Shown here one piece after another: positions 1 to 22,669 of a stretch of DNA of 23,432 nt. The notes beneath the pieces are model-generated. The model was not told the origin of the DNA, made no database searches, and saw nothing but the letters and a program-made list of their open reading frames with translations. The stretch lies in the IMG/VR virus record IMGVR_UViG_2531839127_000024, positions 1-23,432 of that record, one strand, 5' to 3'. Both the position numbers and the translations under genes were made by a program. Source of the stretch: a virus. Its lineage: Duplodnaviria > Heunggongvirae > Uroviricota > Caudoviricetes. Each line of letters starts with the position of its first letter. Position 1 is the first letter of the stretch.

Positions 1-996
1 TTATGGACGCATTATGGACATTCCTGACACCGGGTTAAGAGTCACAGCATCTTGTAAGAAATCCGGTGCAAAGTGTGCGTAGGTCATAGTTTGCTGAATG
101 TTAGAATGACCCAGGATGCGCTGCAATGTGATTATGTTACCTCCATTCATTATAAAATGTGTGGCAAATGTATGCCTCAAAACATGCACTGCCTGTCCGT
201 CAGGTAAATCGGGTTTTACTTCCCTGAGAGCATTGCGCACTTTGTAGTAACTGGCATTAAAAAGCCTGCCTGAATTTTTGGTCTTGATCCGTTTAATCAG
301 GTCCTGCGAAACGGGAATTGTCCTGCGCTTTCCGTTTTTAGTTTTCATAAACGTAACCATCTGGTTAATGATGTGTTCAGCTTTCAAATTAGACACTTCA
401 CTCCAGCGTCCACCAGTAGAAAGGCAGACCAGAGTTGCATTTAACTCATCACCATCAAGCATGGATAACAGCCGCGTAATCTCTTCACTGGACAAAAAAG
501 CCATTTCAGTAACAGCTTCACGTAACCGCTTAACCTCACGGAACGGGTTGTGAGAGTGGTATTCACCGGCGTCAATTAACTTGGTGAACATCCCGCTCAT
601 TATTGCCAGATGCCGATTTACGCTGGCTGGTTTAAGACCATCGTTCATCATTACAACGCGATAATCAGTTATCGTTTTCTTTGTTAGCTGGTCAGCTCTG
701 GACACTCCCATTTCTGCAAATTTGGCGATTATTGTCGTCAAACGCCCCCGTTCAATATTTCCACGCTCATGTGATTTTCCGTGATATATCCACCATCTGC
801 CTAACAACTCTGTAAGAGTTCGGCGGTCGGCTGGCTTCTCCAGCCACTCTTTGTTGTGGTAGTTAACCAGCACATGACGTTCGAATGCTTGAGCTTCACC
901 TTTAGTTTTAAATTTCCGCCTGATACGTTTTCCATCTGCACCCTGCGGTCTGACGTCCACTTCATAACGACCATCATCGAGCTTTTTAATAGACAT
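1..996 (-). CDS. int: Tyrosine integrase (P2 Int family), 331 aa
   Basis: ORF with ATG at 996 preceded by GGAGGG; C-terminal catalytic motifs LRHTFATHF and TYAHFAP (H-x-x-R ... Y) typical of tyrosine recombinases; sits next to the repressor as in P2. Stop codon is at positions 1-3, so att lies left of the window. Confidence 0.92.
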   Translation of the reverse strand: MSIKKLDDGRYEVDVRPQGADGKRIRRKFKTKGEAQAFERHVLVNYHNKEWLEKPADRRTLTELLGRWWIYHGKSHERGNIERGRLTTIIAKFAEMGVSRADQLTKKTITDYRVVMMNDGLKPASVNRHLAIMSGMFTKLIDAGEYHSHNPFREVKRLREAVTEMAFLSSEEITRLLSMLDGDELNATLVCLSTGGRWSEVSNLKAEHIINQMVTFMKTKNGKRRTIPVSQDLIKRIKTKNSGRLFNASYYKVRNALREVKPDLPDGQAVHVLRHTFATHFIMNGGNIITLQRILGHSNIQQTMTYAHFAPDFLQDAVTLNPVSGMSIMRP

Positions 997-1089
997 AAAG
1001 CCCTCCGATGACGCTGTTTACTTCTACTACTTGAAAATTAATGCAATTTTCTTTCGTACATTTACTGCACACATATGCTGAATAAATCG

Positions 1090-1389
1090 TCAGCCAGTCT
1101 TTTGGTCTGAGTGGTGCAAGGTTGTTGAGTCTTGCCCAATGTGTGCGAGAGCCGGGGCTATTTGTCCAGCTTCGGGATCTATTTCATCAAACATGAACCA
1201 GTCACGATACTTGCGAAAGCGTGGATGCTTAAACAGCTTCATACCTGCTTCCATAGGCATTTTTGATTTCCCTGATTCATATCCATGATATGTGTAGTAA
1301 TTAATTCCAATTAATTCAGCAAGTTCCTTAGTTTTAAGGCGTTCGGATTCACGAATGAGCTTTAATTTCTCGCTTTGTTCACTTGACAT
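1090..1389 (-). CDS. C: Immunity repressor, P2 C-like (about 99 aa)
   Basis: Small protein divergent from cox; motif GQIAPALAHIGQ...HSDQKTG resembles the C-terminus of P2 C as I remember it. Track start at 1407 is TTG; ATG at 1389 with GGAG upstream is preferred. Confidence 0.75.
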   Translation of the reverse strand: MSSEQSEKLKLIRESERLKTKELAELIGINYYTYHGYESGKSKMPMEAGMKLFKHPRFRKYRDWFMFDEIDPEAGQIAPALAHIGQDSTTLHHSDQKTG

Positions 1390-1482
1390 AATTTTGCTAA
1401 TCTCCAATTATATGGCTACTTGGCAATTTGTGATGCACTCAAAAAGGCTCTAGATGGCTCCAGTTGGTGAATTACAAATCTT
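1390..1482. promoter_or_regulatory. Immunity switch region between C and cox (expected early and repressor promoters plus operators)
   Basis: 93-bp gap between divergent repressor and cox genes; minus-strand TATAAT at 1407-1412; direct repeat GGCTC spaced about 10 bp. Exact promoter and operator positions not resolved. Confidence 0.45.
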
Positions 1483-1854
1483 ATGGAGGATAGCAAAGTG
1501 ACGACAAATGTAGAAATTTCTTGTCAAACTAGCGATGAGGCAAGTTTCGAAAACGAAGCCAAACGCAAAAGCATTCAGATTTCAGAGCGCCCATCAGATT
1601 TGCTGTCGAAAGAGGGGTTTGCTCTTTACATCGGTAAGACACCACGCGCGGTGGCTGAAATGGCTAAAGCGGGAAAGCTGCCAGCCTTCTATATGACAGA
1701 CCCATTAAAACCAAGAGGGAAAGCTGAATTATGGGTAAATCGTCGTGAGTGGGATAAGTATGCGGCACAACTAGTCGAAGAGGCTCCGACCGAGTGGCAT
1801 GACTGGAAAAATCGCATTAGTTACAGCAAATCAAGACATGGCCGTGCGGCTTAA
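1483..1854 (+). CDS. cox: Cox-like excisionase/early transcriptional regulator with N-terminal extension
   Basis: HTH-like segment FALYIGKTPRAVAEMAKAGKLP followed by YMTDP, resembling P2 Cox; first gene of the rightward early operon. Alternative start GTG 1498 has a better RBS (GGAGGA at 1485-1490). Confidence 0.7.
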   Translation: MEDSKVTTNVEISCQTSDEASFENEAKRKSIQISERPSDLLSKEGFALYIGKTPRAVAEMAKAGKLPAFYMTDPLKPRGKAELWVNRREWDKYAAQLVEEAPTEWHDWKNRISYSKSRHGRAA

Positions 1855-3346: not shown

Positions 3347-3618
3347 GGATTCGTATCGAAATTGGCGAACGTTATGTCGTTACCAGTGACAGCTTTCAGT
3401 TTATTCTCCACGAGAAAAAGAGAGCGGAAAGCGGTAAAAACGCCGGTCAGGAATGGCTGGCGGTGGTTGGTTATTACCCGAAATTAAGCCAGCTCGTTTC
3501 CGGCCTGATGCATCACGATATTCTGACCGGAAGCGCAAAGTCTTTTGCTGATTTAAACGCGCAGGTTGAGCAACTCAGCAGGCGTTGTTCAGAGGCTTTT
3601 GGCTCATATGGCCGTTAA
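3343..3618 (+). CDS. Small early protein (P2 orf83 position), 91 aa
   Basis: ATG 3343 overlaps the orf82 stop; GGAGAA RBS; overlaps the A start region. Confidence 0.6.
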   Translation: MRIRIEIGERYVVTSDSFQFILHEKKRAESGKNAGQEWLAVVGYYPKLSQLVSGLMHHDILTGSAKSFADLNAQVEQLSRRCSEAFGSYGR

Positions 3619-5893
3619 AGCCTCCGGGCGTTTTGTCCCTCCGTCAGCATTTGCTGCAGGCACCGGTAAGGCGTTTACCGGTGCTTATGCATGGAACGCG
3701 CCACGCGAGGCCGTCGGGCGCGAAAGACTCCTTACACGTGACGAGATGCGTCAGGTGCAAGGTGTTTTATCCACGATTAACCGCCTGCCTTACTTTTTGC
3801 GCTCGCTGTTTACTTCACGCTATGACTACATCCGGCGCAATAAAAGCCCGGTGCACGGGTTTTATTTCCTCACATCCACTTTTCAGCGTCGTTTATGGCC
3901 GCGCATTGAGCGTGTGAATCAGCGCCATGAAATGAACACCGACGCGTCGTTACTGTTTCTGGCAGAGCGTGACCACTATGCGCGCCTGCCGGGAATGAAT
4001 GACAAGGAGCTGAAAAAGTTTGCCGCCCGTATCTCATCGCAGCTTTTCATGATGTATGAGGAACTCTGCGATGCCTGGGTGGATGCGCATGGCGAAAAAG
4101 AATCGCTGTTTACGGATGAGGCGCAGGCGCATCTGTATGGTCATGTTGCTGGCGCTGCACGTGCTTTCAATATTTCCCCTCTCTACTGGAAAAAATACCG
4201 TAAAGGACAGATGACCACGAGGCAGGCATATTCTGCCATTGCCCGTCTGTTTAACGATGAGTGGTGGACTCATCAGCTTAAAGGCCAGCGTATGCGCTGG
4301 CATGAGGCGTTACTGATTGCTGTCGGGGAGGTGAATAAAGACCGTTCTCCTTATGCCAGTAAACATGCCATTCGTGATGTGCGTGCGCGCCGCCAGGCAA
4401 ATCTGGAATTTCTTAAATCGTGTGACCTTGAAAACAGGGAAACCGGCGAGCGCATCGACCTTATCAGTAAGGTGATGGGAAGTATTTCTAATCCTGAAAT
4501 TCGCCGGATGGAGCTGATGAACACCATTGCCGGTATTGAGCGTTACGCCGCCGCAGAGGGTGATGTGGGGATGTTTATCACGCTGACCGCGCCGTCAAAG
4601 TATCACCCGACACGTCAGGTCGGAAAAGGCGAAAGTAAAACCGTCCAGCTAAATCACGGCTGGAACGATGAGGCATTTAATCCAAAGGATGCGCAGCGTT
4701 ATCTCTGCCGCATCTGGAGCCTGATGCGCACGGCATTCAAGGATAATGATTTACAGGTCTACGGTTTGCGTGTCGTCGAGCCACACCACGACGGAACGCC
4801 GCACTGGCATATGATGCTTTTTTGTAATCCACGTCAGCGTAACCAGATTATCGAAACCATGCGTCGCTACGCGCTCAAAGAGGATGGCGACGAAAGAGGA
4901 GCCGAGCGAAACCGTTTTCAGGCGAAACACCTTAACCGGGGCGGTGCTGCGGGGTATATCGCGAAATACATTTCAAAAAATATCGACGGCTATGCACTGG
5001 ATGGTCAGCTCGATAACGATACCGGCAGACCTCTGAAAGATACTGCCGCGGCTGTTACTGCATGGGCGTCAACGTGGCGCATCCCGCAATTTAAAACGGT
5101 TGGTCTGCCGACAATGGGGGCTTACCGTGAACTACGCAAATTGCCTCGCGGCGTCAGCATTGCTGATGAGTTTGACGAACGCGTCGAGGCTGCACGCGCT
5201 GCCGCAGACAGTGGCGATTTTGCGTTGTATATCAGCGCGCAGGGTGGGGCAAATGTCCCGCGCGATTGTCAGACTGTCAGGGTTGCCCGTAGCCCGTCGG
5301 ATGACGTTAACGAGTACGAGGAAGAAGTCGAGAGAGTGGTCGGCATTTACGCGCCGCATCTCGGCGCGCGTCATATTCATATCACCAGAACGACGGACTG
5401 GCGCATTGTGCCGAAAGTTCCGGTCGTTGAGCCTTTGACTTTAAAAAGCGGCATCGCCGCGCCTCGGAGTCCTGTCAATAACTGTGGAAAGCTCACCGGT
5501 GGTGATGCTTCGTTACCGGCTCCCACACCTTCTGAGCACGCCGCAGCAGTGCTTAATCTGGTTGATGACGGTGTTATCGAATGGAATGACCCGGAGGTCG
5601 TGAGGGCGCTCAGAAGCGCATTAAAACACGGTCTGAGAAGACCAAACCGTCAGCAAAGAAACGGAAACCCGTTAAAACCGCATGAAATAGCGCCATCGGC
5701 CAGACTGACCCGGTCAGAACGATTGCAAATTACCCGTATCCGCGTTGACCTCGCTCAGAACGGTATCAGGCCGCAACGATGGGAGCTTGAGGCGCTGGTG
5801 CGTGGCGCGACCGTAAATTATGACGGGAAAAAATTCACGTATCCGGTCGCTGATGAGTGGCCGGGATTCTCAACAGTAATGGAGTGGACATGA
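3608..5893 (+). CDS. A: Rolling-circle replication initiator A (761 aa)
   Basis: From ATG 3608 the protein starts MAVKASGRFVPP and is exactly 761 aa, matching P2 gpA as I recall it; contains HWHMMLF (HUH-like) motif. Track start at 3566 is TTG. Confidence 0.9.
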   Translation: MAVKASGRFVPPSAFAAGTGKAFTGAYAWNAPREAVGRERLLTRDEMRQVQGVLSTINRLPYFLRSLFTSRYDYIRRNKSPVHGFYFLTSTFQRRLWPRIERVNQRHEMNTDASLLFLAERDHYARLPGMNDKELKKFAARISSQLFMMYEELCDAWVDAHGEKESLFTDEAQAHLYGHVAGAARAFNISPLYWKKYRKGQMTTRQAYSAIARLFNDEWWTHQLKGQRMRWHEALLIAVGEVNKDRSPYASKHAIRDVRARRQANLEFLKSCDLENRETGERIDLISKVMGSISNPEIRRMELMNTIAGIERYAAAEGDVGMFITLTAPSKYHPTRQVGKGESKTVQLNHGWNDEAFNPKDAQRYLCRIWSLMRTAFKDNDLQVYGLRVVEPHHDGTPHWHMMLFCNPRQRNQIIETMRRYALKEDGDERGAERNRFQAKHLNRGGAAGYIAKYISKNIDGYALDGQLDNDTGRPLKDTAAAVTAWASTWRIPQFKTVGLPTMGAYRELRKLPRGVSIADEFDERVEAARAAADSGDFALYISAQGGANVPRDCQTVRVARSPSDDVNEYEEEVERVVGIYAPHLGARHIHITRTTDWRIVPKVPVVEPLTLKSGIAAPRSPVNNCGKLTGGDASLPAPTPSEHAAAVLNLVDDGVIEWNDPEVVRALRSALKHGLRRPNRQQRNGNPLKPHEIAPSARLTRSERLQITRIRVDLAQNGIRPQRWELEALVRGATVNYDGKKFTYPVADEWPGFSTVMEWT

Positions 5894-6378
5894 TGGCAAA
5901 AATTCACGAGGTAAAGCTGCACGCAAAATATTTCGACCTTGTACTGGAAGGAAAAAAACGCGCAGAGTTTCGGAAAAATGACCGTAATTATGAGCGCGGG
6001 GACACGTTGATTTTGCATGAATGGGTGCAGGGTGTGTTTACGGGGCGAAAGGTTGAAGCCCGGATAACAGATGTTACTGACCTGTCAGACTGGCTGGAAG
6101 ATTATGTCTTGCTAAGTATTGAGCTGCTTAATACGGGCGCATATAAGATTGTGAACTGGAAAGAACTTAGTGAACGTGGTCTGGTATTCAGAATTAATCA
6201 TGAAATTATGCATCAGCTCGGCCTTGCTGTTATGTATGAACCAGAGACGGGCTGTCTGGCGGGGCAGTGGTTGCTGCGGATGGGATATGGAACTATTCAG
6301 ATGAACAGGTGGAGCGTGCAAAGCAAAACGGGTGGCTTGGATAATGCACAGAATACCAGGCGAGATACCGCACCATAA
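5890..6378 (+). CDS. ASCH/DUF3850-like protein (P2 orf91-like N-terminus) with about 70-aa C-terminal extension
   Basis: ATGATG at 5890-5895 overlaps the A stop; GGAG RBS at 5881; N-terminus MAKIHEVKLHAKYFDLVLEGKKRAEFRK is ASCH-like. 162 aa versus 91 aa for P2 orf91. Confidence 0.65.
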   Translation: MMAKIHEVKLHAKYFDLVLEGKKRAEFRKNDRNYERGDTLILHEWVQGVFTGRKVEARITDVTDLSDWLEDYVLLSIELLNTGAYKIVNWKELSERGLVFRINHEIMHQLGLAVMYEPETGCLAGQWLLRMGYGTIQMNRWSVQSKTGGLDNAQNTRRDTAP

Positions 6379-6397
6379 AACTAAAAATATCAAGCTG

Positions 6398-6550
6398 ATG
6401 GCTATTGTTCAGCGTTTACAGCGGATTATGGTCAACGAAAATCTGACGCCCGATGAGCTGGTCGGGTGTGCCGAAATAGTTCGGGATAATTACGGGCGGC
6501 TTAACTATATCGGTCAGTCCAGAGTTGCGCCACCACCACGAAGACGATAG
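6398..6550 (+). CDS. Hypothetical small protein (50 aa), doubtful
   Basis: ATG-initiated ORF at the backbone/cargo junction; no convincing RBS. Confidence 0.2.
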   Translation: MAIVQRLQRIMVNENLTPDELVGCAEIVRDNYGRLNYIGQSRVAPPPRRR

Positions 6551-6773
6551 AGAACGCCGCCAGTCGTGAAACTTGTTTTCAGGGCTGGCGGGGTTGAACA
6601 ACGAGCGTAGCGAGGCGTTAGTTGACAGACATATTTTTACTGCGTTGGTGCCGGTTTTTGACGGTTGAAAGGAGTTAGGTTGGAGAGCTAACAACTTACA
6701 AATATTCAAAAGTAAGCATCCTGTTGCTAACATGAGGTCGATTTTTTATGTGGATGATGCAAAAAGGATAGCT

Positions 6774-7505
6774 ATGGATACTATAATCGCTTTTCTATCA
6801 CTCGCTTTTTTCGTTGCTTTCTTCATCGGGTTAATCAAGCCATCACTGGTGCGAATGCCAAACCGCAAACGTGCAAGTGCGGTTTATCTCGGAGGAGGTT
6901 TTGTATTGAGCATAATTGGTTCAATACTCTATCCAACAGAAAAAAGCCAGCCAGTTGATAAAACTGAAACATCAACCGTTGCAGAACATAAAGTCCAAAA
7001 AACATTCGAATATGGTGAAAAAACACTCAAGGAATATCGGAACGAGTCAAAGAAAACACGACACGATATTGTGAATAGTTACATTGATTTTAAGGAAGTT
7101 CCAGCCACCGCGTCAGATGCGTTTTATGCCTGCATGAGTGAATATACATTTACCAAAGATGATGAGTTGAAACTCGGTGATGTTCTTGGGTGGTGCTTTA
7201 ATGATTATGAAAATGACCCGAATTCACTAAACAATAAAATCAATCTTGATACATTTCAGAGTAATTTTAGTGGTTGGGATGGTTCTTATCGTCCATTGGA
7301 AAAACTAATTAAAGATAATATGAACGATGATTCATCTTATAAACATGTATCAACGGTATATCATCTGGTTTTGAATAAAGACCCGCATGCCATTGTGAAA
7401 ACCACGTTTCGCGGAACTAATGCTTATGGCGGAGTGGTGAAACAGACGATTGCTGCGCGTGTTGATATAAAAACTGGTAAGGTGATATCAATCATAGATA
7501 ATTGA
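6774..7505 (+). CDS. Cargo protein 1: unrecognised membrane protein, two N-terminal TM helices plus about 180-aa soluble domain (243 aa)
   Basis: AAAGGA RBS 5 nt upstream of ATG 6774 (in-frame alternative ATG 6732); hydrophobic segments IIAFLSLAFFVAFFIGLI and VYLGGGFVLSIIGSILY separated by basic loop RMPNRKRAS; AT-rich codon usage unlike the phage backbone. Confidence 0.7.
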   Translation: MDTIIAFLSLAFFVAFFIGLIKPSLVRMPNRKRASAVYLGGGFVLSIIGSILYPTEKSQPVDKTETSTVAEHKVQKTFEYGEKTLKEYRNESKKTRHDIVNSYIDFKEVPATASDAFYACMSEYTFTKDDELKLGDVLGWCFNDYENDPNSLNNKINLDTFQSNFSGWDGSYRPLEKLIKDNMNDDSSYKHVSTVYHLVLNKDPHAIVKTTFRGTNAYGGVVKQTIAARVDIKTGKVISIIDN

Positions 7506-7514
7506 TATCTTACA

Positions 7515-7555
7515 ATGCCGACGCTGAATATTTAATTGGGTGTCGGCATTTTTTG
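7515..7555 (+). terminator. Putative intrinsic terminator after cargo gene 1
   Basis: Stem ATGCCGAC (7515-7522) pairs with GTCGGCAT (7542-7549), followed by TTTTTT; loop is long (19 nt), so moderate confidence. Confidence 0.45.
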
Positions 7556-7614
7556 ACTATTAGAGCGGCAGAACCGAGATTTGTTGCGTATGAGATTAGC
7601 ACTGCGAGAATGTT

Positions 7615-8397
7615 ATGAAAATTATAAACCAACTTAAGAAGTTTGATAAGAAAAGAACGCCAGATGATGGCCGTATTAGTTTGTTATATGAAAACGCGAT
7701 TAAGTATGATATGTACTCTGTATATATTAAAGATAAAAATGATACAGAATACCTCTTTGACTGTTTGGTTGATGGGAAGATAAAGGCTTTTAAATGGGAT
7801 GATGAGGAGCGTAGATTTCATATAAGTTCATGCTTGGATATTTCTGAGGTTACGCCTGATTCTTTTTTTGGTGTTTACTACTACCGTGCGCATGAGTTGC
7901 GATTTAACTCTTTAAATGATTTAACATTTTTAAGGGAGTTGTTCTTTAGAGTAAAGTCTAATTATGAAAATATAAAGTTTAGTCGTGAAAAATATATTTA
8001 TCGACAGCAAAAAAAAGAAATAACTGATGTGATGTTTGTTCTCTCAACGATTATAAGAATGTATCGTGAATGGGATGCTCAAACTGTGTTTAGTGAGTTT
8101 TCAATAATGACCGAAGTCGCTGGTAGTTTATGGGTATACCATGACGATAAAAACAGGATGCGTAAAGAGCTTCGTTTATGCCTGAATTCTCTTGTTCAGA
8201 ATGGAGATCTTGTTGAAACAAGTAGTGGATTTAGGCCAACAGGAAAGGCACTGAACACAATATCTACATTCAATAAAGATGAGGTGCGGTACAGAGAGAA
8301 TTTGAGTACTCAGAAGAAAATGTTTTGGGCTACTTTTTTCGCAGCAGTCGGCGGCGTAGGAAGTATGATTGCAGCTATAATAGGGCTTCTAAAATGA
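7615..8397 (+). CDS. Cargo protein 2: unrecognised protein with cytoplasmic N-domain and single C-terminal TM helix (260 aa)
   Basis: ATG ORF; very AT-rich; C-terminal hydrophobic segment FWATFFAAVGGVGSMIAAIIGLL preceded by KK; no catalytic motif recognised. Confidence 0.7.
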   Translation: MKIINQLKKFDKKRTPDDGRISLLYENAIKYDMYSVYIKDKNDTEYLFDCLVDGKIKAFKWDDEERRFHISSCLDISEVTPDSFFGVYYYRAHELRFNSLNDLTFLRELFFRVKSNYENIKFSREKYIYRQQKKEITDVMFVLSTIIRMYREWDAQTVFSEFSIMTEVAGSLWVYHDDKNRMRKELRLCLNSLVQNGDLVETSSGFRPTGKALNTISTFNKDEVRYRENLSTQKKMFWATFFAAVGGVGSMIAAIIGLLK

Positions 8398-8557
8398 GCC
8401 AACAAAATCGTATGATGAAGTATTGAGTGAAAAGCATTCTTTATATGCATTATTTTGCATGCAACATATGCTATACATTCTAGCTATGAATTGTCAGACG
8501 TGGCAGTACTTCTGTATGGTAATGCAACTGCATTAAAACCGCCCCATGAAGCGGGCG

Positions 8558-8576
8558 GGCGAGGCGGGGAAAGCAC
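8558..8576. other. cos cohesive-end site (19-nt P2-type cohesive end GGCGAGGCGGGGAAAGCAC)
   Basis: Exact 19-mer that I recall as the P2 cohesive end, followed by G/T-rich packaging-region sequence, located just downstream of Q as in P2. Confidence 0.65.
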
Positions 8577-8718
8577 TGCGCGCTGGCGGTGGTGCTGATT
8601 TTATTTTTTCAGCGTCTGAGCGCGTCGTGAAGGCGCTTAGTCTGCCCGTTGAGGCGTTGGTGTGTCTGCGGGGTGTTTTGTGCGGTGGTGAGCGTGTGAG
8701 GGCGTGATGACGGGGTGT

Positions 8719-8740
8719 AAAAAAGCCGCCCGCAGGCGGC
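8719..8740 (-). terminator. Intrinsic terminator of the P-Q operon
   Basis: On the minus strand GCCGCC-TGCG-GGCGGC hairpin followed by TTTTTT, 6 bp downstream of the Q stop. Confidence 0.7.
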
Positions 8741-8745
8741 GATGT

Positions 8746-9780
8746 TCAGCCGTTGTCAGTGTCCAGTGAGTAGTTTTTAAAGCGGATGACCTCCTGACCG
8801 AGCCAGCCGTTTATCTCGCGGATCCTGTCCTGTAGCGGGATAAGCTCATTACGGACAAAGACCTTTGCCACTTTCTCAATATCACCCAGCGACCCGACGT
8901 TCTCCGGCTTGCCGCCCATCAACTGAAAGGGGATACGGTGCGCGTCCAGCAGGTCAGCGGCGCTGGCTTTTTTGATATTAAAAAAATCGTCCTTCGTTGC
9001 CACTTCACTGAGCGGGATAATTTTAATGCCGTCAGCTTTCCCCTGCGGGGCATAGAGAAACAGGTTTTTAAAGTTGTTGCGGCCTTTCGACTTAACCATG
9101 TTTTCGCGAAGCATTTCGATATCGTTGCGATCCTGCACGGCATCGGTGACGTACATGATGTATCCGGCATGAGCGCCATTTTCGTAATACTTTCGGCGGA
9201 ACAGCGTGGCCGACTCATTCAGCCAGGCAGAATTAAGGGCGCTGAGATATTCCGGCAGGCCGTACAACTCCTGATTAATATCCGGCTCCAGCAGGTGAAA
9301 CACGGAGCCGGGCGTGAAGGCTGTCGGCTCGTTGAAGGACGGCACCCACCAGTAAACATCCTCCTCCACGCCACGGCGGGTATATTTTGCCGGTGAGGTT
9401 TCCAGTCTGATGACCTTACCGGTGGTGCTGTAACGCTTTTCCAGAAACGCATTACCGAAAACCAGAAAATCCAGCACAAAGCGGCTGAAATCCTGCTGGG
9501 AAAGCCACGGATGCGGGATAAATGTCGAGGCCAGAATATTGCGTTTAACGTAAATCGGTGAGCTGTGATGCACGGCAGCACGCAGGCTTTTTGCCAGACC
9601 GGTAAAGCTGACCGGTGGCTCATACCATCTGCCGTTACTGATGCACTCGACGTAATCCAGAATGTCACGGCGGTCGAGTACCGGCACCGGCTCGCCAAAG
9701 GTGAATGCTTCCATTTTCGGGGCGCTGGCAGTCATTGTTTTCACCGCTGGCTGCGGTGTTTTCCCTTTTTTCTTACTCAT
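8746..9780 (-). CDS. Q: Portal protein (344 aa)
   Basis: Length identical to P2 gpQ; ATG overlaps the P stop (ATGA); position next to cos. Confidence 0.9.
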   Translation of the reverse strand: MSKKKGKTPQPAVKTMTASAPKMEAFTFGEPVPVLDRRDILDYVECISNGRWYEPPVSFTGLAKSLRAAVHHSSPIYVKRNILASTFIPHPWLSQQDFSRFVLDFLVFGNAFLEKRYSTTGKVIRLETSPAKYTRRGVEEDVYWWVPSFNEPTAFTPGSVFHLLEPDINQELYGLPEYLSALNSAWLNESATLFRRKYYENGAHAGYIMYVTDAVQDRNDIEMLRENMVKSKGRNNFKNLFLYAPQGKADGIKIIPLSEVATKDDFFNIKKASAADLLDAHRIPFQLMGGKPENVGSLGDIEKVAKVFVRNELIPLQDRIREINGWLGQEVIRFKNYSLDTDNG

Positions 9781-11552
9781 CAGTAAAACTCCAGAATGGT
9801 GGATGTCAGCGGAGTGCTGATACCGGCGGTGAGTGGCTCATTTAACAGGGCGTGCATGGTCGCCCAGGCGAGGTCGGCGTGGCTGGCTTCCTCGCTGCGG
9901 CTGGCCTCATAGGTGGCGCTGCGTCCGCTGCTGGTCATGGTCTTGCGGATAGCCATGAACGAGCTGGTGATGTCGGTGGCGCTGACGTCATATTCCAGAC
10001 AGCCACGGCGGATAACGTCTTTTGCCTTGAGCACCATTGCAGTTTTCATTTCCGGCGTGTAGCGGATATCGCGCGCGGCGGGATAGAACGAGCGCACGAG
10101 CTGGAACACGCCGACACCGAGGCCGGTGGCATCAATACCGATGTATTCGACGTTATATTTTTCGGTGAGTTTGCGGATGGATTCAGCCTGGGTGGCAAAG
10201 TCCATGCCTTTCCACTGGTGACGCTCAAGTATTCTGAATTTGCCACCGGCCACCACCGGCGGTGCCAGCACCACGCATCCGGCGCTGTCGCCACGGTGTG
10301 ACGGGGCGTAACCAATCCATACCGGACGTGAGCCGAACGGATTGGCGGCAAACGGAGCATAGTCTTCCCATTCTTCCAGCGTGTCGACCATGCAGCGTTG
10401 CAGCTCCTCGAACGGGAACACCGACGCCTTGTCGTCAACAAATTCACACATGAACAGGTTTTTAAAATCGTCGGCGCTGTTTTCACGTTTGAGCTGCTCA
10501 ATGTCGAACAGCGTGCAGCCGCCTTTCAGGGCGTCCTCAATGGTGACAATCTGCCGCCACTGGCCGTCCGCACAGAGAAGCCCACCGGCAAGGGCGTTAT
10601 GACTGACGTCGATTTCCACGCGTTCGGCGGCGCTGGCGCGTCCCCGGTTAAACAGTTCACCCGACCAGAACGGGTAGGCGTCGTGCGCCAGTGTGGACGG
10701 GGTGGAGAAATAGGTCGAGCGCAGGTGACTCTGTGAGGCCATACCTGATGCCACCTTACGCAGTACCTGAAAATTCGGGATCCAGAAAATCTCGTCGACG
10801 TACAGGTCGCCGTTATGGCTCTGCGCGGTGTTGGAGTTGGTGCCGAGAAAAATCAGTTTTGCGCCGTTATTGCCCAGGACAATTGGGTCACCGGTCAGGT
10901 CAACGTCAACCAGCCGGGCAAAGGCGATGATGTATTCGCGGAACACATACGCCTGCGTTTTACTGGCCGACAGAAAAATCTGGTTATGACCGGTTTTCAG
11001 GGCGCGCAGCAGCGCCTCGCGGGAAAAATAAAACGTCGCGCCAATCTGGCGGGATTTCAGGATATCGCGGATGCGGTGCTCAAGCCCTGCGCGATACCAG
11101 TGCAACTGATATTCGAAAGACTGCTCAAAGAAAATCTGCTCCAGCTTTTCGATGGCCTCGTCACTGAAAAAATTCTTTTTCGGTTTGCGACGCCCGCCTT
11201 TGTTGCGGTTAGCGACGTTCGGATTAAGGTCTGCCTCGTTGCCGGTCTGACTGTAACGGTTGACCCGTGCCAGTCGTTCAATCTGGCGTCCCAGCAGGTC
11301 AATTTCCTTGAAGTCACCGCCGGTTTTCTGCGGTTTGATGATGAGCTGGGTCAGCCGCGCTTCCAGACTCATTTCGACACGGCTGATGGGGGCAACGCTG
11401 TCCCAGCCGTCGCGCTGTTTCCAGCTCTGCACCGTCGGGCGTTTCATCTGCAACATGGCGGCAATCTGCGGCACGGAAAACCCCTGCCAGTACAGCAGCG
11501 CCGCCTGACGACGCGGGTCGTGTAAAAGAGTGGTGTCTGTGGTGATGGTCAT
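9780..11552 (-). CDS. P: Terminase large subunit/ATPase (590 aa)
   Basis: From ATG 11552 (GAGGGA RBS) the protein starts MTITTDTTLLHDPRR and is 590 aa, matching P2 gpP. Track start 11582 is TTG. Confidence 0.9.
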   Translation of the reverse strand: MTITTDTTLLHDPRRQAALLYWQGFSVPQIAAMLQMKRPTVQSWKQRDGWDSVAPISRVEMSLEARLTQLIIKPQKTGGDFKEIDLLGRQIERLARVNRYSQTGNEADLNPNVANRNKGGRRKPKKNFFSDEAIEKLEQIFFEQSFEYQLHWYRAGLEHRIRDILKSRQIGATFYFSREALLRALKTGHNQIFLSASKTQAYVFREYIIAFARLVDVDLTGDPIVLGNNGAKLIFLGTNSNTAQSHNGDLYVDEIFWIPNFQVLRKVASGMASQSHLRSTYFSTPSTLAHDAYPFWSGELFNRGRASAAERVEIDVSHNALAGGLLCADGQWRQIVTIEDALKGGCTLFDIEQLKRENSADDFKNLFMCEFVDDKASVFPFEELQRCMVDTLEEWEDYAPFAANPFGSRPVWIGYAPSHRGDSAGCVVLAPPVVAGGKFRILERHQWKGMDFATQAESIRKLTEKYNVEYIGIDATGLGVGVFQLVRSFYPAARDIRYTPEMKTAMVLKAKDVIRRGCLEYDVSATDITSSFMAIRKTMTSSGRSATYEASRSEEASHADLAWATMHALLNEPLTAGISTPLTSTILEFY

Positions 11553-13715: not shown

Positions 13716-14459
13716 ATGACGAGTCCCGCACAGCGCCACATGATGCGGGTCTCGGCAGCGATGACCGCGCAGCGGGAAGCCGCCCCGCTGCGACATGCAA
13801 CTGTCTATGAGCAGATGCTGGTTAAGCTCGCCGCAGACCAGCGCACACTGAAAGCGATTTATTCAAAAGAGCTGAAGGCCGCGAAAAAACGCGAACTGCT
13901 GCCGTTCTGGTTGCCGTGGGTGAATGGCGTGCTGGAGCAGGGCAAAGGTGCACAGGATGACATTCTGATGACGGTCATGCTGTGGCGTCTGGATACCGGC
14001 GATATTGCCGGTGCGCTGGAGATTGCCCGTTATGCCCTGAAATACGGTCTGACCATGCCGGGTAAACACCGCCGTACCCCGCCGTACATGTTCACCGAGG
14101 AGGTGGCACTTGCGGCCATGCGCGCCCACGCTGCCGGTGAGTCTGTGGATACCCGCCTGCTGACGGACACCCTTGAACTGACTGCCACGGCTGACATGCC
14201 TGATGAAGTGCGCGCAAAGCTGCACAAAATCACCGGTCTGTTTCTGCGTGACGCTGGTGATGCCGCCGGTGCGCTGGCTCACCTGCAACGTGCGACACAG
14301 CTCGACTGTCAGGCAGGCGTCAAAAAAGAGATTGAACGACTGGAGCGGGAGCTGAAACCGAAGCCGGAGCCGCAGCCCAAAGCGGCCACCCGCGCCCCGC
14401 GTAAGATCCGGAGCGTGACACCGGCAAAACGTGGACGCCCGAAAAAGAAAGCCAGTTAA
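13716..14459 (+). CDS. M: Terminase small/endonuclease subunit (247 aa)
   Basis: Length equals P2 gpM; basic C-terminal tail (KRGRPKKKAS). Confidence 0.88.
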   Translation: MTSPAQRHMMRVSAAMTAQREAAPLRHATVYEQMLVKLAADQRTLKAIYSKELKAAKKRELLPFWLPWVNGVLEQGKGAQDDILMTVMLWRLDTGDIAGALEIARYALKYGLTMPGKHRRTPPYMFTEEVALAAMRAHAAGESVDTRLLTDTLELTATADMPDEVRAKLHKITGLFLRDAGDAAGALAHLQRATQLDCQAGVKKEIERLERELKPKPEPQPKAATRAPRKIRSVTPAKRGRPKKKAS

Positions 14460-17926: not shown

Positions 17927-17992
17927 TTGTGCCATTCCCGACACCTCATCGTCACATTGCCGCCGGTATGACCCGGCGGCATCCTTCCCGTT
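17927..17992 (+). promoter_or_regulatory. S-V intergenic region: hairpin (putative terminator of the O operon) and expected late promoter for V
   Basis: Perfect 8-bp stem GCCGCCGG (17959-17966) / CCGGCGGC (17973-17980) with 6-nt loop but no U-tract; partial dyad TGT-N10-ACA at 17928-17943; operon boundary in P2. Confidence 0.4.
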
Positions 17993-18628
17993 ATGAACAC
18001 TCTCGCAAATATTCAGGAACTCGCGCGCGCACTGCGCAACATGATCCGCACCGGCCTTGTCGTCGAAACCAACCTTAAAGCCGGTCGCTGCCGTGTGCAG
18101 ACCGGCGGCATGTGCACCGACTGGCTTCAGTGGCTGACCTGTCGTGCCGGGCGTTCGCGCACATGGTGGGCACCTTCCGTGGGGGAGCAGGTGCTGATTC
18201 TGGCCGTGGGCGGTGAACTTGACACGGCGTTTGTTCTGCCGGGGATTTATTCCGGCGATAACCCCGCGCCGTCTGCGTCGGCGGATGCCCTGCATATCCG
18301 TTTCCCTGACGGGGCGGTGATTGAGTATGAACCTGAAACCAGTGCACTGACGGTAAGCGGAATTAAAACGGCCAGCGTGACGGCTTCTGATTCTGTTACT
18401 GCCACGGTGCCGGTGGTCATGGTGAAAGCGTCAACCCGCATCACCCTGGACACCCCGGAGGTGGTCTGCACCAACAGACTGATTACCGGCACGCTGGAAG
18501 TGCAGAAGGGCGGGACGATGCGCGGCAACATTAAACATACCGGCGGTGAACTCTCATCAAACGGTAAGGTACTGCATACCCATAAACACCCCGGCGACAG
18601 CGGCGGCACAACCGGGAGTCCTCTATGA
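17993..18628 (+). CDS. V: Baseplate spike/assembly protein V (211 aa)
   Basis: Length equals P2 gpV; first gene of the baseplate operon. Confidence 0.9.
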   Translation: MNTLANIQELARALRNMIRTGLVVETNLKAGRCRVQTGGMCTDWLQWLTCRAGRSRTWWAPSVGEQVLILAVGGELDTAFVLPGIYSGDNPAPSASADALHIRFPDGAVIEYEPETSALTVSGIKTASVTASDSVTATVPVVMVKASTRITLDTPEVVCTNRLITGTLEVQKGGTMRGNIKHTGGELSSNGKVLHTHKHPGDSGGTTGSPL

Positions 18629-19885: not shown

Positions 19886-20489
19886 TTCGCGACTGCTGCC
19901 GACCGGCTCATCACTGCTTGAAGTTGCCGCCGCAAAAGCCTGTGCGGAAATTGAAAAAACGCCGGTCAGTATTCGTGAGCTGTGGAACCCGGATACCTGT
20001 CCGGCAAATCTGCTGCCGTGGCTGGCGTGGTCATTTTCGGTTGACCGCTGGGATGATAAGTGGCCGGAAGCGACAAAACGCGCTGTTATCCGCGATGCGT
20101 ATTTCATTCACTGCCATAAGGGCACTATTGGTGCGATTCGCCGTGTGGTGGAGCCACTCGGCTATCTGATTGAGGTGAGGGAGTGGTGGCAGCTCAACGA
20201 GGAGCCGGGGACGTTCCGTATCGTTGTCGGCGTGCTTGAGCAGGGTATTACCGAGGAAATGTATCAGGAGCTGGAGCGCCTCGTTGCTGATGCAAAACCG
20301 GCAAGCCGCCATCTGACGGGACTGGCTATCAGTTTAAGTACAACCGGCAACATTTTTGCCGGTGCGGGATGCTATCACGGCGACGCCCTGACGGTTTATC
20401 CCTACACCCCGGAGGCCATTATTGTCGGAGGGGATTATTTCCCGGCCTCGGCCATTCATTTAATTGATAACCTGAGAGTAAACGCATGA
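19878..20489 (+). CDS. I: Baseplate/tail protein I (203 aa)
   Basis: GGAGG RBS; overlaps the J stop and the H start; synteny with P2 I. Confidence 0.85.
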   Translation: MSDSRLLPTGSSLLEVAAAKACAEIEKTPVSIRELWNPDTCPANLLPWLAWSFSVDRWDDKWPEATKRAVIRDAYFIHCHKGTIGAIRRVVEPLGYLIEVREWWQLNEEPGTFRIVVGVLEQGITEEMYQELERLVADAKPASRHLTGLAISLSTTGNIFAGAGCYHGDALTVYPYTPEAIIVGGDYFPASAIHLIDNLRVNA

Positions 20490-21898
20490 CAGTGAAATAC
20501 TACGCCATTCTGACTAATCAGGGCGCAGCACGGCTGGCTAACGCGACGATGCTCGGCAGTAAGCTGAATCTGACGCAAATGGCCGTTGGTGATGCGAATG
20601 GTGTCTTGCCGACACCAGACCCGGCACAGACAAAACTGATTAACCAGAAACGCATCGCGCCGCTGAATCTTCTGAGTGTTGACCCGAACAACCAGAGCCA
20701 GATTATTGCGGAGCAAATCATCCCTGAGAACGAGGGCGGATTCTGGATCCGTGAGATTGGGCTTTATGATGATGAAGGCGTACTCATTGCGGTGGCGAAC
20801 TGCCCGGAAACGTACAAACCGCAGTTGCAGGAAGGCAGCGGTCGTACCCAGACTATCCGCATGATTCTGGTTGTCACGAATACCGAAGCCATCACGCTGA
20901 AAATCGACCCGTCGGTGGTACTGGCGACCCGTAAATACGTGGATGATGAAGTCCTGGAATTAAAGCTGTATGTGGATGACCAGATGAGAAACCACATTGC
21001 CGCACAGGATCCTCATACCCAGTATGCACAGAAACATAATCCGACATTTACCGGAGAACCAAAAGCGCCGACGCCTGCCGCAGGAAATAACACCACGCGG
21101 ATTGCGACCACTGCGTTTGTACAGGCCGCTATTACCGCTCTGATTAACGGTGCGCCTGCCACGCTGGATACACTGAAAGAAATTGCCGCAGCCATTAACA
21201 ATGACCCGAAATTCAGCACCACCATTAACAATGCGCTGTCAGGTAAGCAGCCACTGGATGAGACGCTGACTCATTTGAGTGGGAAGGATGTTGCCGGTCT
21301 TCTCGCATACCTTGGTTTGGGAGAAGGCTCTGCATTACCTGTTGGTGTCCCTGTTCCGTGGCCTTCAGCCACTCCGCCAACAGGCTGGCTGAAATGCAAT
21401 GGTGCGGCTTTTTCTGCTGAAGAATACCCGGAACTGGCAAAGGCTTACCCGACAAATAAATTGCCAGATTTACGTGGTGAGTTTATTCGTGGCTGGGATG
21501 ACGGGCGAGGGATTGATGAGGGGCGCATACTTCTCAGTTGTCAGAGTTTTGCTTTCCAGGACCATGCGCACGCTCTGCCAACCGGAGTGGGTAATCCGTC
21601 AGACCAGATGGAAAGCGATATCTATGCGGTTTTCAACGATGTACCAGAAATACCCAGTGCGGCCCTGAGTCCATCGTCGTCAGGAACATCATGGGACGCA
21701 ACCAGTAGGGCAGACAAGGTAATCCTTTATCGCAAGGACCTTTCACCAACAGGTAATAACAACGCAATAGCGACCGGATTACCACCATTCAGGACTTACA
21801 GGGCATCGACCTCAGACGGTGTTACTCATCCGTCCGTGTACGCATCTGAAACCCGTCCGCGCAACATTGCATTTAACTACATCGTGAGGGCTGCATAA
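20486..21898 (+). CDS. H: Tail fibre protein H (470 aa): conserved N-terminus, shared shaft segment, and collar-type receptor-binding tip
   Basis: N-terminus is P2 H-like (GGFWIREIGLYDDEGVLIAVAN); C-terminal tip has tail-collar-like motifs (LPDLRGEFIRGWDDGRGID, ETRPRNIAFNYIVRA). Residues encoded by 20879-21326 are duplicated in inverted orientation downstream. Confidence 0.9.
   Translation: MTVKYYAILTNQGAARLANATMLGSKLNLTQMAVGDANGVLPTPDPAQTKLINQKRIAPLNLLSVDPNNQSQIIAEQIIPENEGGFWIREIGLYDDEGVLIAVANCPETYKPQLQEGSGRTQTIRMILVVTNTEAITLKIDPSVVLATRKYVDDEVLELKLYVDDQMRNHIAAQDPHTQYAQKHNPTFTGEPKAPTPAAGNNTTRIATTAFVQAAITALINGAPATLDTLKEIAAAINNDPKFSTTINNALSGKQPLDETLTHLSGKDVAGLLAYLGLGEGSALPVGVPVPWPSATPPTGWLKCNGAAFSAEEYPELAKAYPTNKLPDLRGEFIRGWDDGRGIDEGRILLSCQSFAFQDHAHALPTGVGNPSDQMESDIYAVFNDVPEIPSAALSPSSSGTSWDATSRADKVILYRKDLSPTGNNNAIATGLPPFRTYRASTSDGVTHPSVYASETRPRNIAFNYIVRAA
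20879..21326 (+). repeat. Left arm of 448-bp perfect inverted repeat (inside H)
   Basis: Reverse complement of 22985-23432 is identical at every block I compared (position p pairs with 44311 minus p); truncated by the window end, so true length is at least 448 bp. Confidence 0.9.
21300..21325 (+). other. Candidate 26-bp serine-invertase crossover site (hix/gix/cix-like), left
   Basis: TTCTCGCATACC-TT-GGTTTGGGAGAA: two imperfect 12-bp inverted half-sites of the TTnTCnnAAACC type around a central dinucleotide, ending 1 bp inside the inner boundary of the inverted repeat. Confidence 0.6.
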
Positions 21899-22503
21899 TG
21901 GCGAAAGCAAAATTAAACAGTGCGTTTATTGCCACCGTGGCAGGAGAAATCACTGTGTACAACTACCGGGGCGACACCCGCGAATACATATCCTCATCGG
22001 TTGAGTATCTGCCTGTGGGGGTGGGTATTCCTGCCAATTCCTGTACCGATGCGCCCGGCACACATAAGGCTGGTTATGCAATCTGCCGTTCTGCAGATTT
22101 TAACTCATGGGAATATGTGCCAGACCATCGCGGTGAAATTGTCTATGGCATCGAAACGGGGGAATCAAAAGAAATTACTGTGCCGGGGGATTACCCTGAA
22201 AATACGACCACTTTTGCCCCATTAACGCCATACGATAAATGGGATGGTGAGAAATGGGTAACAGATACCGAGGCACAGCATAGCGCCGCAGTAGATGCAG
22301 CAGAAGTACAGCGCCAGTCTCTGATTGATGCTGCTATGGCTTCCATCAGTCTGATTCAGCTGAAATTGCAGGCCGGACGTAAACTGACGCAGGCAGAAAC
22401 AACCCGCCTTAACGCTGTGCTGGATTACATTGACGCGGTGACGGCAATAGATACCAGCACCGCGCCTGATATTATTTGGCCTGTATTCCCTGAGACTGAT
22501 TAA
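21898..22503 (+). CDS. G: Tail fibre assembly chaperone (Tfa/gpG-like), 201 aa
   Basis: ATG overlaps the H stop; N-terminal VYNYRGDTREY...LPANSCTDAP is typical of lambda Tfa/Mu U-type chaperones. Confidence 0.85.
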   Translation: MAKAKLNSAFIATVAGEITVYNYRGDTREYISSSVEYLPVGVGIPANSCTDAPGTHKAGYAICRSADFNSWEYVPDHRGEIVYGIETGESKEITVPGDYPENTTTFAPLTPYDKWDGEKWVTDTEAQHSAAVDAAEVQRQSLIDAAMASISLIQLKLQAGRKLTQAETTRLNAVLDYIDAVTAIDTSTAPDIIWPVFPETD

Positions 22504-22669
22504 CCTCAATCAGTATTGGTTCGCCTTTCTCATTAATTGTTAGCTCCATGCCCTGAGGAATTTCTGTCATAGTAAAAAACCAGTTGTCCTCCGGTAATTC
22601 AATAGCCCCGGTCACGTCATGAAGACCGGGGATTACTTCAGTCAAAGTAACTGGATTAAACAGGCGCAC
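22472..22669 (-). CDS. Putative short alternative tail fibre assembly chaperone (65-86 aa depending on start)
   Basis: Minus-strand ORF immediately downstream of the alternative fibre tip; GGAGGG RBS before GTG at 22669 (track start 22732); 3' end overlaps G convergently by 32 nt. No Tfa motif recognised, so the call is positional. Confidence 0.4.
   Translation of the reverse strand: MRLFNPVTLTEVIPGLHDVTGAIELPEDNWFFTMTEIPQGMELTINEKGEPILIEVNQSQGIQAK

What the first reader, a model, noticed from the sequence alone, without database searches (positions are those of the whole stretch)
8558..8745. Intact internal cos site shows prophage or circular topology and marks the cargo as the extreme right genome end
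The 19-nt cohesive-end sequence is internal and followed by G/T-rich packaging-region sequence and the Q terminator. The cargo island therefore occupies the last roughly 2 kb of the packaged genome, where P2-like phages tolerate replacement.
Basis: partly seen in the sequence, partly recalled or inferred. Interest (0 to 1): 0.35.

Follow-up and report, generated by a model that had tools for sequence, protein, structure and literature searches.

The report
Ordinary P2-type prophage cos site
This is the normal DNA-packaging (cos) site of a P2-like prophage of Escherichia coli, lying where it does in every integrated P2-family phage, next to the known variable accessory-gene hotspot; it is correctly read but not new.

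Summary
Observation confirmed. The 19-mer GGCGAGGCGGGGAAAGCAC occurs once, at 8558-8576 (+). It is identical to the cosL/cosR annotated in phage P2. Window 8529-8958 is 97% identical to the circularised P2 end junction, including the tQ terminator and the portal gene Q. At least 19 phage records have a terminus exactly at window 8558.

Interpretation supported. The gene order (int-C-cox-B-A-cargo-cos-Q-P-O-N-M...) is P2 permuted at attP. The closest genome, E. coli E70 (99%), carries the element integrated between pflA and pflB. The region between gpA and cos is the published gpA-gpQ hotspot (Rousset et al. 2022), and this gene arrangement is listed in that paper's supplementary table.

Refinements:
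The 55-bp P2/P4 core is 8529-8583, and a second conserved TGCAT island lies at 8433-8465.
- Cargo gene 1 (6774-7505) is a 76% homologue of phage 186 Orf97. Gene 2 (7615-8397) is an uncharacterised protein with a C-terminal membrane anchor.
- The pair recurs in Enterobacter and Cronobacter prophages at the same place.

Verdict: already known, low interest. Cleavage itself was not testable here.

The parts
8558..8576 (+). cosN: the 19-nt cohesive-end sequence GGCGAGGCGGGGAAAGCAC. By homology with P2 and 186, the top strand is nicked 5' of 8558 and the bottom strand after 8576.
   Evidence: Unique in the window. Identical to the annotated P2 cosL/cosR. At least 19 phage records have a terminus at this exact base. 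The 186, PSP3 and EtG records annotate it as 'top strand cut at 5' end and bottom strand cut at 3' end'.
8529..8583 (.). 55-bp cos core shared by P2 and its satellite P4: TGCATTAAAACCGCCCCnnnAAGCGGGCG, then the 19-mer, then nGCGCGC.
   Evidence: Anchored comparison of the window with the P2, P4 and 186 junctions. [quoted passage not shown] Information content is 1.4-1.9 bits per position over -30..+27 in 106 unique cos regions, the window's among them.
8539..8558 (-). G+C-rich hairpin (CCGCCC/GGGCGG, 8-nt loop) followed by TTTT on the - strand. It is terminator-like, lies inside the cos core and abuts the nick.
   Evidence: The sequence is conserved in P2 and P4. In 186 two of the six stem pairs are broken without compensation (read by eye), so sequence rather than structure seems to be what is conserved.
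8433..8465 (.). Second conserved island on the right-arm (cargo) side: aGCAT-N8-TGCAT-N5-TGCATGC, about -125 to -93 from the nick.
   Evidence: There are 5 TGCA in the 130 nt left of cos, against a window-wide mean of 0.56 per 130 nt, and no higher count occurs anywhere else in the window. In 106 unique IMG/VR P2-like cos regions (the window's included) TGCA occurs at -124 (42%), -111 (61%) and -101 (71%). Information content is 0.46-0.81 bits there and at most 0.18 beyond -130. The island is also present in P2, P4, 186, Enterobacter and Cronobacter prophages. Its function was not tested.
8577..8718 (+). G/T-rich left-arm sequence between cosN and the Q terminator.
   Evidence: 75% G+T. About 96% identical to P2 20-159, and the window matches the family consensus at 8-10 of every 10 positions in all but one block (6 of 10 at +80..+89).
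8719..8740 (-). tQ, the intrinsic terminator of the P-Q (terminase-portal) operon.
8746..9780 (-). gpQ portal protein, 344 aa.
   Evidence: Pfam Phage_portal. Collinear with P2 Q.
9780..11552 (-). gpP large terminase, 590 aa.
   Evidence: Terminase_5, Terminase_6N and Terminase_6C domains. RefSeq annotation of the E70 homologue.
13716..14459 (+). gpM small terminase, 247 aa.
   Evidence: Pfam Phage_term_smal, E 3e-48.
3608..5893 (+). gpA replication endonuclease; left border of the hotspot.
   Evidence: Pfam Phage_GPA, E 7e-124. Annotation in E70.
5893..6550 (+). Semi-conserved genes after A: an ASCH/DUF3850 protein (orf91-like, 5893-6345) and a 68-aa ORF (6345-6550, phrog_11386).
   Evidence: Shared with Wphi and others up to about window 6621.
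6774..7505 (+). Cargo gene 1: a 243-aa protein with two N-terminal membrane helices, homologous to phage 186 Orf97.
   Evidence: 76% identity over 243 aa, E 2e-148. The 186 record notes 'expression from plasmid blocks 186 infection'. phrog_3403. AF2 model with pLDDT 83 and no significant PDB fold match.
7615..8397 (+). Cargo gene 2: an uncharacterised 260-aa protein with a beta-rich N-terminal domain, a long helix, a winged-helix-like domain and a C-terminal membrane helix.
   Evidence: phrog_7611. No Pfam, PADLOC or NCBIfam hit. 30 homologue clusters; those that carry a source name are enterobacterial. AF2 pLDDT 86. The Crp/PrfA-like and winged-helix fold hits are weak (best E 4e-3, TM 0.23).
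1..996 (-). Integrase. Its stop codon is the first base of the window, so attL would lie just outside.
   Evidence: Pfam Int_N and Phage_integrase. In E70 pflA lies 31 bp beyond it.

Best explanation
The feature is the cohesive-end packaging site (cos) of a P2-like (Peduovirus) temperate phage, seen in prophage gene order. After excision and circularisation, the phage terminase (gpM small subunit and gpP large subunit, both encoded in the window) would recognise the cos region. It would make staggered nicks 5' of 8558 on the top strand and after 8576 on the bottom strand, giving 19-nt 5' overhangs. The Q side would become the left end of virion DNA. The accessory genes at 6774-8397 would become the last ~2 kb of the right end. 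P2-family attP lies between ogr and int, far from cos, so cos is always internal in the integrated prophage. The interval between gpA and cos is the known hotspot where P2-like phages exchange accessory, often anti-phage, genes. Shown here: sequence identity, synteny, the ends of related phage records, the integrated state of the closest relative, and the variability of the hotspot. Inferred: actual cleavage, packaging competence and the function of the cargo.
For: - The exact, unique 19-mer matches the annotated P2 cosL/cosR.
- Identity to the P2 circular junction is 97% from -28 to +399.
- The 55-bp P2/P4 core is intact.
- No rare base occurs in -40..+72 when compared with 105 other P2-like cos regions.
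- Records of P2, Wphi, L-413C, fiAA91-ss, 186, PSP3, EtG, SEN1 and others start or end at exactly this base.
- Phages 11W and 10W carry a 99.5% and 98.7% identical cos region; 10W's record gives E. coli lysogens as its source.
- The window is collinear with P2 as a permutation at attP.
- Intact Q, P and M genes lie next to the site.
- The closest genome, E70, has the prophage between pflA and pflB, with a 13-bp direct repeat 30,593 bp apart.
- The hotspot is described in PMC9122126, and this arrangement is listed in its supplementary table.
- The cargo is low in G+C (0.28-0.41) against 0.5-0.58 for the backbone.
- Relatives carry different genes in the same interval.
Against: - Nothing in the sequence argues against it.
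- The window holds no att site or host DNA, so integration is inferred from a 99%-identical relative, not seen directly.
- The window ends before the tail genes FI-D and ogr, so completeness of the prophage cannot be judged from the window alone.
- Cleavage and packaging were not observed.
- The upstream TGCAT island is shifted by 1 nt and its first motif is AGCAT rather than TGCAT. The significance of this is unknown.
Confidence: 0.95

Rival explanations
1. The sequence is a genuine P2-type cos, but it sits in a defective, no longer packageable prophage, so it is a relic rather than a working site.
For: P2-type prophages are often cryptic. The window lacks the last third of the late region, so completeness cannot be checked. 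In E70 the tail-fibre gene is annotated as incomplete or frameshifted around an invertible segment. Function was not tested.
Against: Every P2 homologue inside the window is an intact ORF, including Q, P, M, N, O and the replication genes. The cos core shows no rare substitutions. E70 carries the remaining tail genes and ogr as intact CDSs. The tail-fibre 'pseudogenes' are the alternative ends expected in an invertible segment.
Confidence: 0.1
2. The window comes from a circular or concatemeric phage assembly with an arbitrary start point, not from an integrated prophage.
For: The window has no host DNA or att site, and it begins exactly at a gene boundary (the int stop codon). A circularised assembly opened next to attP would look the same.
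Against: The best match (99% over 21.3 kb) is chromosomal and flanked by pflA and pflB. 3214 of 3231 matching places for the cargo-cos segment (5850-8800) in complete E. coli genomes are chromosomal.
Confidence: 0.08
3. It is the cos of a P4-like satellite, not of a helper phage.
For: P4 has the identical 19-mer and the same left flank.
Against: P4 diverges completely from +27 onward. The window instead continues into the P2 left arm, tQ, Q and P at 97% identity. No P4 genes are present.
Confidence: 0.01

Closest known systems
cos site of bacteriophage P2 (AF063097/NC_001895; Ziermann & Calendar 1990)
   Same: Identical 19-nt cohesive end. The same 55-bp core, the same G/T-rich left arm, the same tQ terminator and the same distance to the portal gene, with 97% identity over 430 bp.
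   Different: Ten substitutions and two 1-nt indels over the 430 aligned bases, several of them in the left arm. Homology to P2 on the right arm stops at -29. Beyond that only the TGCAT motif arrangement is kept.
cos sites of satellite P4 and of phage 186
   Same: The left flank TGCAACTGCATTAAAACCG.CCC...AAG.GGGC, the 19-mer (186 differs at 2 positions) and GCGCGC are shared. The window matches P4 and 186 further to the left (from 8523) than it matches P2. The upstream TGCA cluster is shared too.
   Different: P4 has an unrelated left arm. 186 is only ~73% identical across the left arm.
gpA-gpQ anti-phage hotspot of P2-like phages (Rousset et al. 2022, PMC9122126); the tin/old region of P2
   Same: The same location between the replication gene A and cos/portal. 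Content differs between close relatives and G+C is low. This very arrangement (DUF3850/ASCH plus three hypotheticals, including WP_001476973) is listed in that paper's supplementary locus table.
   Different: There is no hit to any PADLOC defence model, and I found no defence test of this arrangement. The genes point towards cos, whereas P2 tin and old point away from it.
Right end of phage 186 (SOS operon tum-orf97, then cos)
   Same: Cargo gene 1 is 76% identical to 186 Orf97 and lies in the same position just before cos.
   Different: The window has no tum/DinI gene and no LexA box upstream of gene 1. An extra gene (7615-8397) lies between the orf97 homologue and cos. 186 lacks it, while Enterobacter and Cronobacter 186-like prophages have it.
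Phage lambda cos (cosQ-cosN-cosB)
   Same: The same logic: a nicking site giving 5' cohesive ends, flanked by accessory recognition sequences and cut by a two-subunit terminase.
   Different: No sequence similarity. The overhang is 19 nt rather than 12 nt. From established knowledge, not tested here: P2 terminase uses monomeric circles rather than concatemers as its substrate.

Membership tests
P2-family (Peduoviridae) cos site | The 19-nt cohesive-end sequence GGCG(A/T)GGCGGGGAAAGCA(C/T) | tested here: met
   Exact match to the P2/P4 version at 8558-8576. This version is found in 75 of 105 IMG/VR P2-like cos regions.
P2-family (Peduoviridae) cos site | The 55-bp core conserved between P2 and P4 around the nick sites | tested here: met
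   Window 8529-8583 differs from P2 and P4 only at the 3 loop positions and 1 position that also differ between P2 and P4.
P2-family (Peduoviridae) cos site | Position immediately downstream of the portal gene terminator, at the junction of the early-region right end and the late-region left end | tested here: met
   170 nt separate the 19-mer from the Q stop codon, with tQ in between. The spacing is the same in Enterobacter (166 nt) and Cronobacter (169 nt) prophages.
P2-family (Peduoviridae) cos site | Cognate terminase (gpP, gpM) and portal (gpQ) encoded by the same element | tested here: met
   Intact ORFs with the expected Pfam domains.
P2-family (Peduoviridae) cos site | Cleavage by terminase to give 19-nt 5' overhangs, and sufficiency for packaging or transduction | not testable with these tools
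   Needs end sequencing of virion DNA or a cosmid transduction assay.
Integrated prophage (as opposed to a free circular genome) | Flanked by host DNA and by duplicated att core sequences | tested here: inconclusive
   This cannot be seen in the window, which starts at the int stop codon. In the 99%-identical E70 element, pflA and pflB flank it, and a 13-bp direct repeat ACCAATAACTGAC lies 30,593 bp apart.
P2 gpA-gpQ accessory/anti-phage hotspot | Located between gpA and gpQ/cos, with unrelated gene content in otherwise collinear relatives | tested here: met
P2 gpA-gpQ accessory/anti-phage hotspot | The cargo confers protection against other phages | not testable with these tools
   No PADLOC, Pfam or NCBIfam hit. 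The only hint is the 186 record's note on orf97.

The most novel reading that the evidence does not exclude
The P2-family packaging signal may have a second accessory element that has not been described: the phased TGCAT island about 95-125 bp to the right-arm side of the nick (window 8433-8465). It is conserved at fixed distance in P2, 186, P4 and more than 100 prophages, even though the adjacent cargo is unrelated. It could be a binding site for the small terminase or a host factor, in the manner of a cosB or cosQ analogue. If so, it would set the true inner boundary of the cargo hotspot. The rival reading is that it is a conserved promoter or regulatory region for leftward cargo genes, since in P2 it overlaps the -35 region of the old promoter. 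I could not read Ziermann & Calendar 1990, so the island may already be covered there.
Probability: 0.2. Interest if true: 0.35.

Novelty: already known. Interest (0 to 1): 0.1.

Why it matters
The finding matters little beyond correct annotation. It fixes the virion genome ends of this prophage and identifies the element as a Peduovirus in prophage order. It places the two uncharacterised membrane-protein genes in the published cos-proximal hotspot, where anti-phage genes are enriched. That makes them reasonable but unproven candidates for an exclusion function. The exact cos coordinates are also useful in practice for building cosmids or cos-knockout helper strains.

Tried and rejected
- Chance match: rejected, with 0 matches in 100 shuffles even at 3 mismatches.
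- P4 satellite cos: rejected, because the left arm is P2-type.
- Exact source genome: not found among 5,426 complete E. coli genomes. The best is E70 at 99% over 1-21327.
- Defence annotation of the cargo: PADLOC, Pfam and NCBIfam gave nothing. PHROGs returned only families of unknown function.
- Fold searches of AF2 models against the PDB: no hit at E <= 0.001 for either cargo protein. The Crp/PrfA-like match for gene 2 has TM 0.23 and I do not rely on it.
- LexA box upstream of the orf97 homologue, as in the 186 SOS operon: none found.
- Structural role for the hairpin at 8539-8558: not supported, since 186 breaks two stem pairs without compensation.
- Ziermann & Calendar 1990 is not held, so I could not compare the mapped minimal cos with the TGCAT island.
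- Three paper searches failed on term length and two gave nothing useful.
- The IMG/VR conservation profile is anchored without gaps, so conservation far from the nick is underestimated wherever indels occur.

Full report
**Observation.** The 19-mer GGCGAGGCGGGGAAAGCAC lies at 8558-8576 on the + strand. It is the only match in the window even with three mismatches allowed, and none of 100 dinucleotide-preserving shuffles produced a match. In the P2 reference record AF063097 the same 19 bases are annotated 'cosL; left cohesive end' (1-19) and 'cosR; right cohesive end' (33575-33593). I joined the two P2 ends into the circular junction and aligned it to the window. Window 8529-8958 matches P2 -28 to +399 with 416/428 identities and two single-base indels.

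The stretch 8577-8718 is 75% G+T, with GC skew +0.31 and AT skew -0.29. The - strand hairpin at 8740-8725 followed by T6 corresponds to the P2 feature 'tQ; putative rho-independent terminator for P operon'. The portal gene Q ends at 8746.

**Independent support for the cut site.** In two searches of 50,697 phage records, many P2-family genomes have a terminus at exactly window 8558. These include P2, Wphi, L-413C, fiAA91-ss (annotated cosL), 186, PSP3, EtG (the last three annotated 'cohesive end; top strand cut at 5' end...') and SEN1. At least 19 of the listed rows behave this way. Phages 11W and 10W have cos regions 99.5% and 98.7% identical to the window's; 10W's record gives E. coli lysogens as its source.

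**Anatomy of the site.** I anchored the window, P2, P4 and 186 on the 19-mer. The block shared by the window, P2 and the otherwise unrelated satellite P4 is TGCATTAAAACCGCCCCnnnAAGCGGGCG, then the 19-mer, then nGCGCGC. That is 55 bp, window 8529-8583. [quoted passage not shown] On the left the window matches P4 and 186 from 8523, a little further than it matches P2.

A scan of IMG/VR for the 18-mer gave 115 loci with at least 200 nt on both sides. With the window added, 111 sequences were unique and 106 were P2-like. Information content is 1.4-1.9 bits per position from -30 to +27, and the window agrees with the consensus throughout. Against the 105 other sequences it has no base rarer than 15% between -40 and +72. 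By sequence, the site is 'intact'.

**A second conserved island.** Left of the core, conservation falls and then rises again at about -125 to -95 (0.46-0.81 bits, against at most 0.18 beyond -130). The island is a phased set of TGCA(T) motifs. TGCA occurs at -124, -111 and -101 in 42%, 61% and 71% of the unique sequences, and at -35 and -29 inside the core. P2, P4, 186 and Enterobacter and Cronobacter prophages all show TGCA-N9-TGCA-N6-TGCA there. This holds although their neighbouring genes are unrelated.

The window has aGCAT-N8-TGCAT-N5-TGCATGC at 8433-8465, shifted by one base. The 130 nt left of its cos contain 5 TGCA against a window-wide mean of 0.56, and no 130-nt stretch elsewhere in the window has more.

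What the island does is not shown. In 186 it lies after the last annotated terminator (t95b) and before cos. In P4 and 186 the adjacent genes point towards cos. Both facts favour a packaging role. In P2, however, it overlaps the -35 region of the leftward old promoter, judging from the annotated transcript starts 149-151 nt from the nick. A promoter or regulatory role is therefore the rival reading. Either way, the conserved cos-associated region starts near 8430, only about 35 nt after the last cargo stop codon (8397).

**Topology.** BLAST of the window against the whole P2 genome gives three collinear blocks. Window 1851-6113 matches P2 26277-30539 (97%). Window 8558-17928 matches P2 1-9369 (98%). 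Window 17993-20314 matches P2 10308-12629 (95%). This is the P2 map opened at attP (P2 24356-24383, between ogr and int) rather than at cos, which is the prophage order. The window begins at the stop codon of int and holds no host DNA, so integration is not visible in the window itself.

The best match among 5,426 complete E. coli genomes is strain E70, at 99.0% over window 1-21327. There the element lies in the chromosome between pflA and pflB, running int ... ogr. A 13-bp direct repeat (ACCAATAACTGAC) sits 30,593 bp apart at its borders. For the cargo-cos segment 5850-8800, matches occur in 2,159 of 5,426 genomes, and 3,214 of 3,231 places are chromosomal. The reading 'prophage or circular topology' is correct, and prophage is much the more likely of the two.

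**Cargo and hotspot.** Relative to P2, the window replaces P2 30540-33545 (the end of orf91, plus tin and old) with window 6114-8528. Relative to the wider family, sequence is shared up to about 6621 (Wphi and others), and then relatives diverge. Its G+C is 0.28-0.41 against 0.5-0.58 on either side.

This is the hotspot described by Rousset et al. [quoted passage not shown] That paper counted 1,650 arrangements in 18,150 loci (PMC9122126). A 2026 preprint confirms it as the main P2 defence hotspot. The arrangement here (DUF3850/ASCH plus three hypotheticals, with the accessions WP_001409868, WP_001476973 and WP_000554772 that RefSeq gives in E70) is listed in that paper's supplementary table.

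**The cargo genes.** Gene 1 (6774-7505, 243 aa, two N-terminal membrane helices) is 76% identical over its full length to Orf97 of phage 186. Orf97 occupies the same place before the 186 cos, belongs to the 186 SOS operon (PMC5322425, citing Brumby et al. 1996) and carries the record note 'expression from plasmid blocks 186 infection'. The window has no tum/DinI gene and no LexA box upstream of gene 1.

Gene 2 (7615-8397, 260 aa) has no Pfam, PADLOC or NCBIfam hit. It belongs to a small family of 30 clusters; those with a source name are enterobacterial. A confident AF2 model (pLDDT 86) shows a beta-rich domain, a long helix, a winged-helix-like domain and a C-terminal membrane helix. Its PDB matches are only weak.

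The two genes also lie side by side, after a DinI/tum gene and before cos and the portal gene, in Enterobacter and Cronobacter 186-like prophages at 55-60% identity. Gene 1 also occurs without gene 2, in 186, S164 and P22H4. Their function is unknown. An exclusion role is a reasonable guess from the 186 note and the hotspot context, but nothing here tests it.

**Mechanism.** The following comes from knowledge of the P2 family and is not shown here. After excision by Int and Cox and circularisation, gpM and gpP bind the cos region and nick 5' of 8558 (top strand) and after 8576 (bottom strand). The DNA is packaged through the gpQ portal. The virion genome then runs from 8558 rightwards through the late genes, across the rejoined att site and the early genes, and ends with the cargo and 8576. 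Q, P and M are intact in the window.

**Verdict.** The feature is textbook for P2-like prophages, which are present in about 40% of complete E. coli genomes. It is already known and of low interest. Two things go modestly beyond the finding: the conserved TGCAT island on the cargo side of cos, and the conserved Orf97-plus-partner gene pair. Both are recorded as leads, not results.

Noticed in passing
window 8433-8465 (also P2 33452-33478; P4, 186, L013, L016): A phased TGCAT motif island (TGCA-N9-TGCA-N6-TGCA) lies about 95-125 bp on the cargo side of the cos nick. It is conserved at fixed distance in P2, P4, 186 and more than 100 IMG/VR P2-like elements, although the neighbouring genes are unrelated. 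It may be an accessory packaging element. In P2 it may instead be part of the old promoter region.
   Followed up: partly
window 6774-7505: Cargo gene 1 is a 76%-identical homologue of phage 186 Orf97 (record note: expression from plasmid blocks 186 infection). Here it lacks the tum/DinI gene and LexA box that precede it in 186.
   Followed up: yes
window 7615-8397; L013-L016: Cargo gene 2 encodes an uncharacterised protein with a winged-helix-like domain and a C-terminal membrane anchor. In Enterobacter and Cronobacter prophages it is found directly after the Orf97 homologue and before cos, which suggests a two-gene module.
   Followed up: partly
window 8539-8558, - strand: A second terminator-like hairpin (CCGCCC/GGGCGG followed by TTTT) lies inside the cos core and ends at the first base of the cohesive end. 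It is conserved in P2 and P4, but two stem pairs are broken in 186.
   Followed up: partly
window 21327-23432: Similarity to the otherwise 99%-identical E70 prophage stops at 21327, inside the tail-fibre gene (20486-21898). A tail-fibre assembly gene follows (21898-22503), then a 246-aa ORF on the opposite strand (22656-23396). E70 has a recombinase gene just beyond this point. The layout looks like an invertible, host-range-switching tail-fibre segment in a different orientation or allele.
   Followed up: no
window 17928-17993: The nonessential P2 gene orf30 (P2 9439-10224) is absent. About 64 bp replace about 940 bp between gene S and gene V.
   Followed up: no
window 1-1850: The integrase, repressor C and cox are only ~67% identical to P2 or not alignable at DNA level. 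This points to a different immunity and integration specificity. In E70 the site is between pflA and pflB, with a candidate 13-bp att core ACCAATAACTGAC about 100 bp left of the window start.
   Followed up: partly
window 6416-6733, - strand: A 105-aa antisense ORF in the spacer before cargo gene 1 matches phrog_33524 (E 3e-44). RefSeq does not annotate it in E70. It may be a real small gene or a recurrent miscall in phage records.
   Followed up: no
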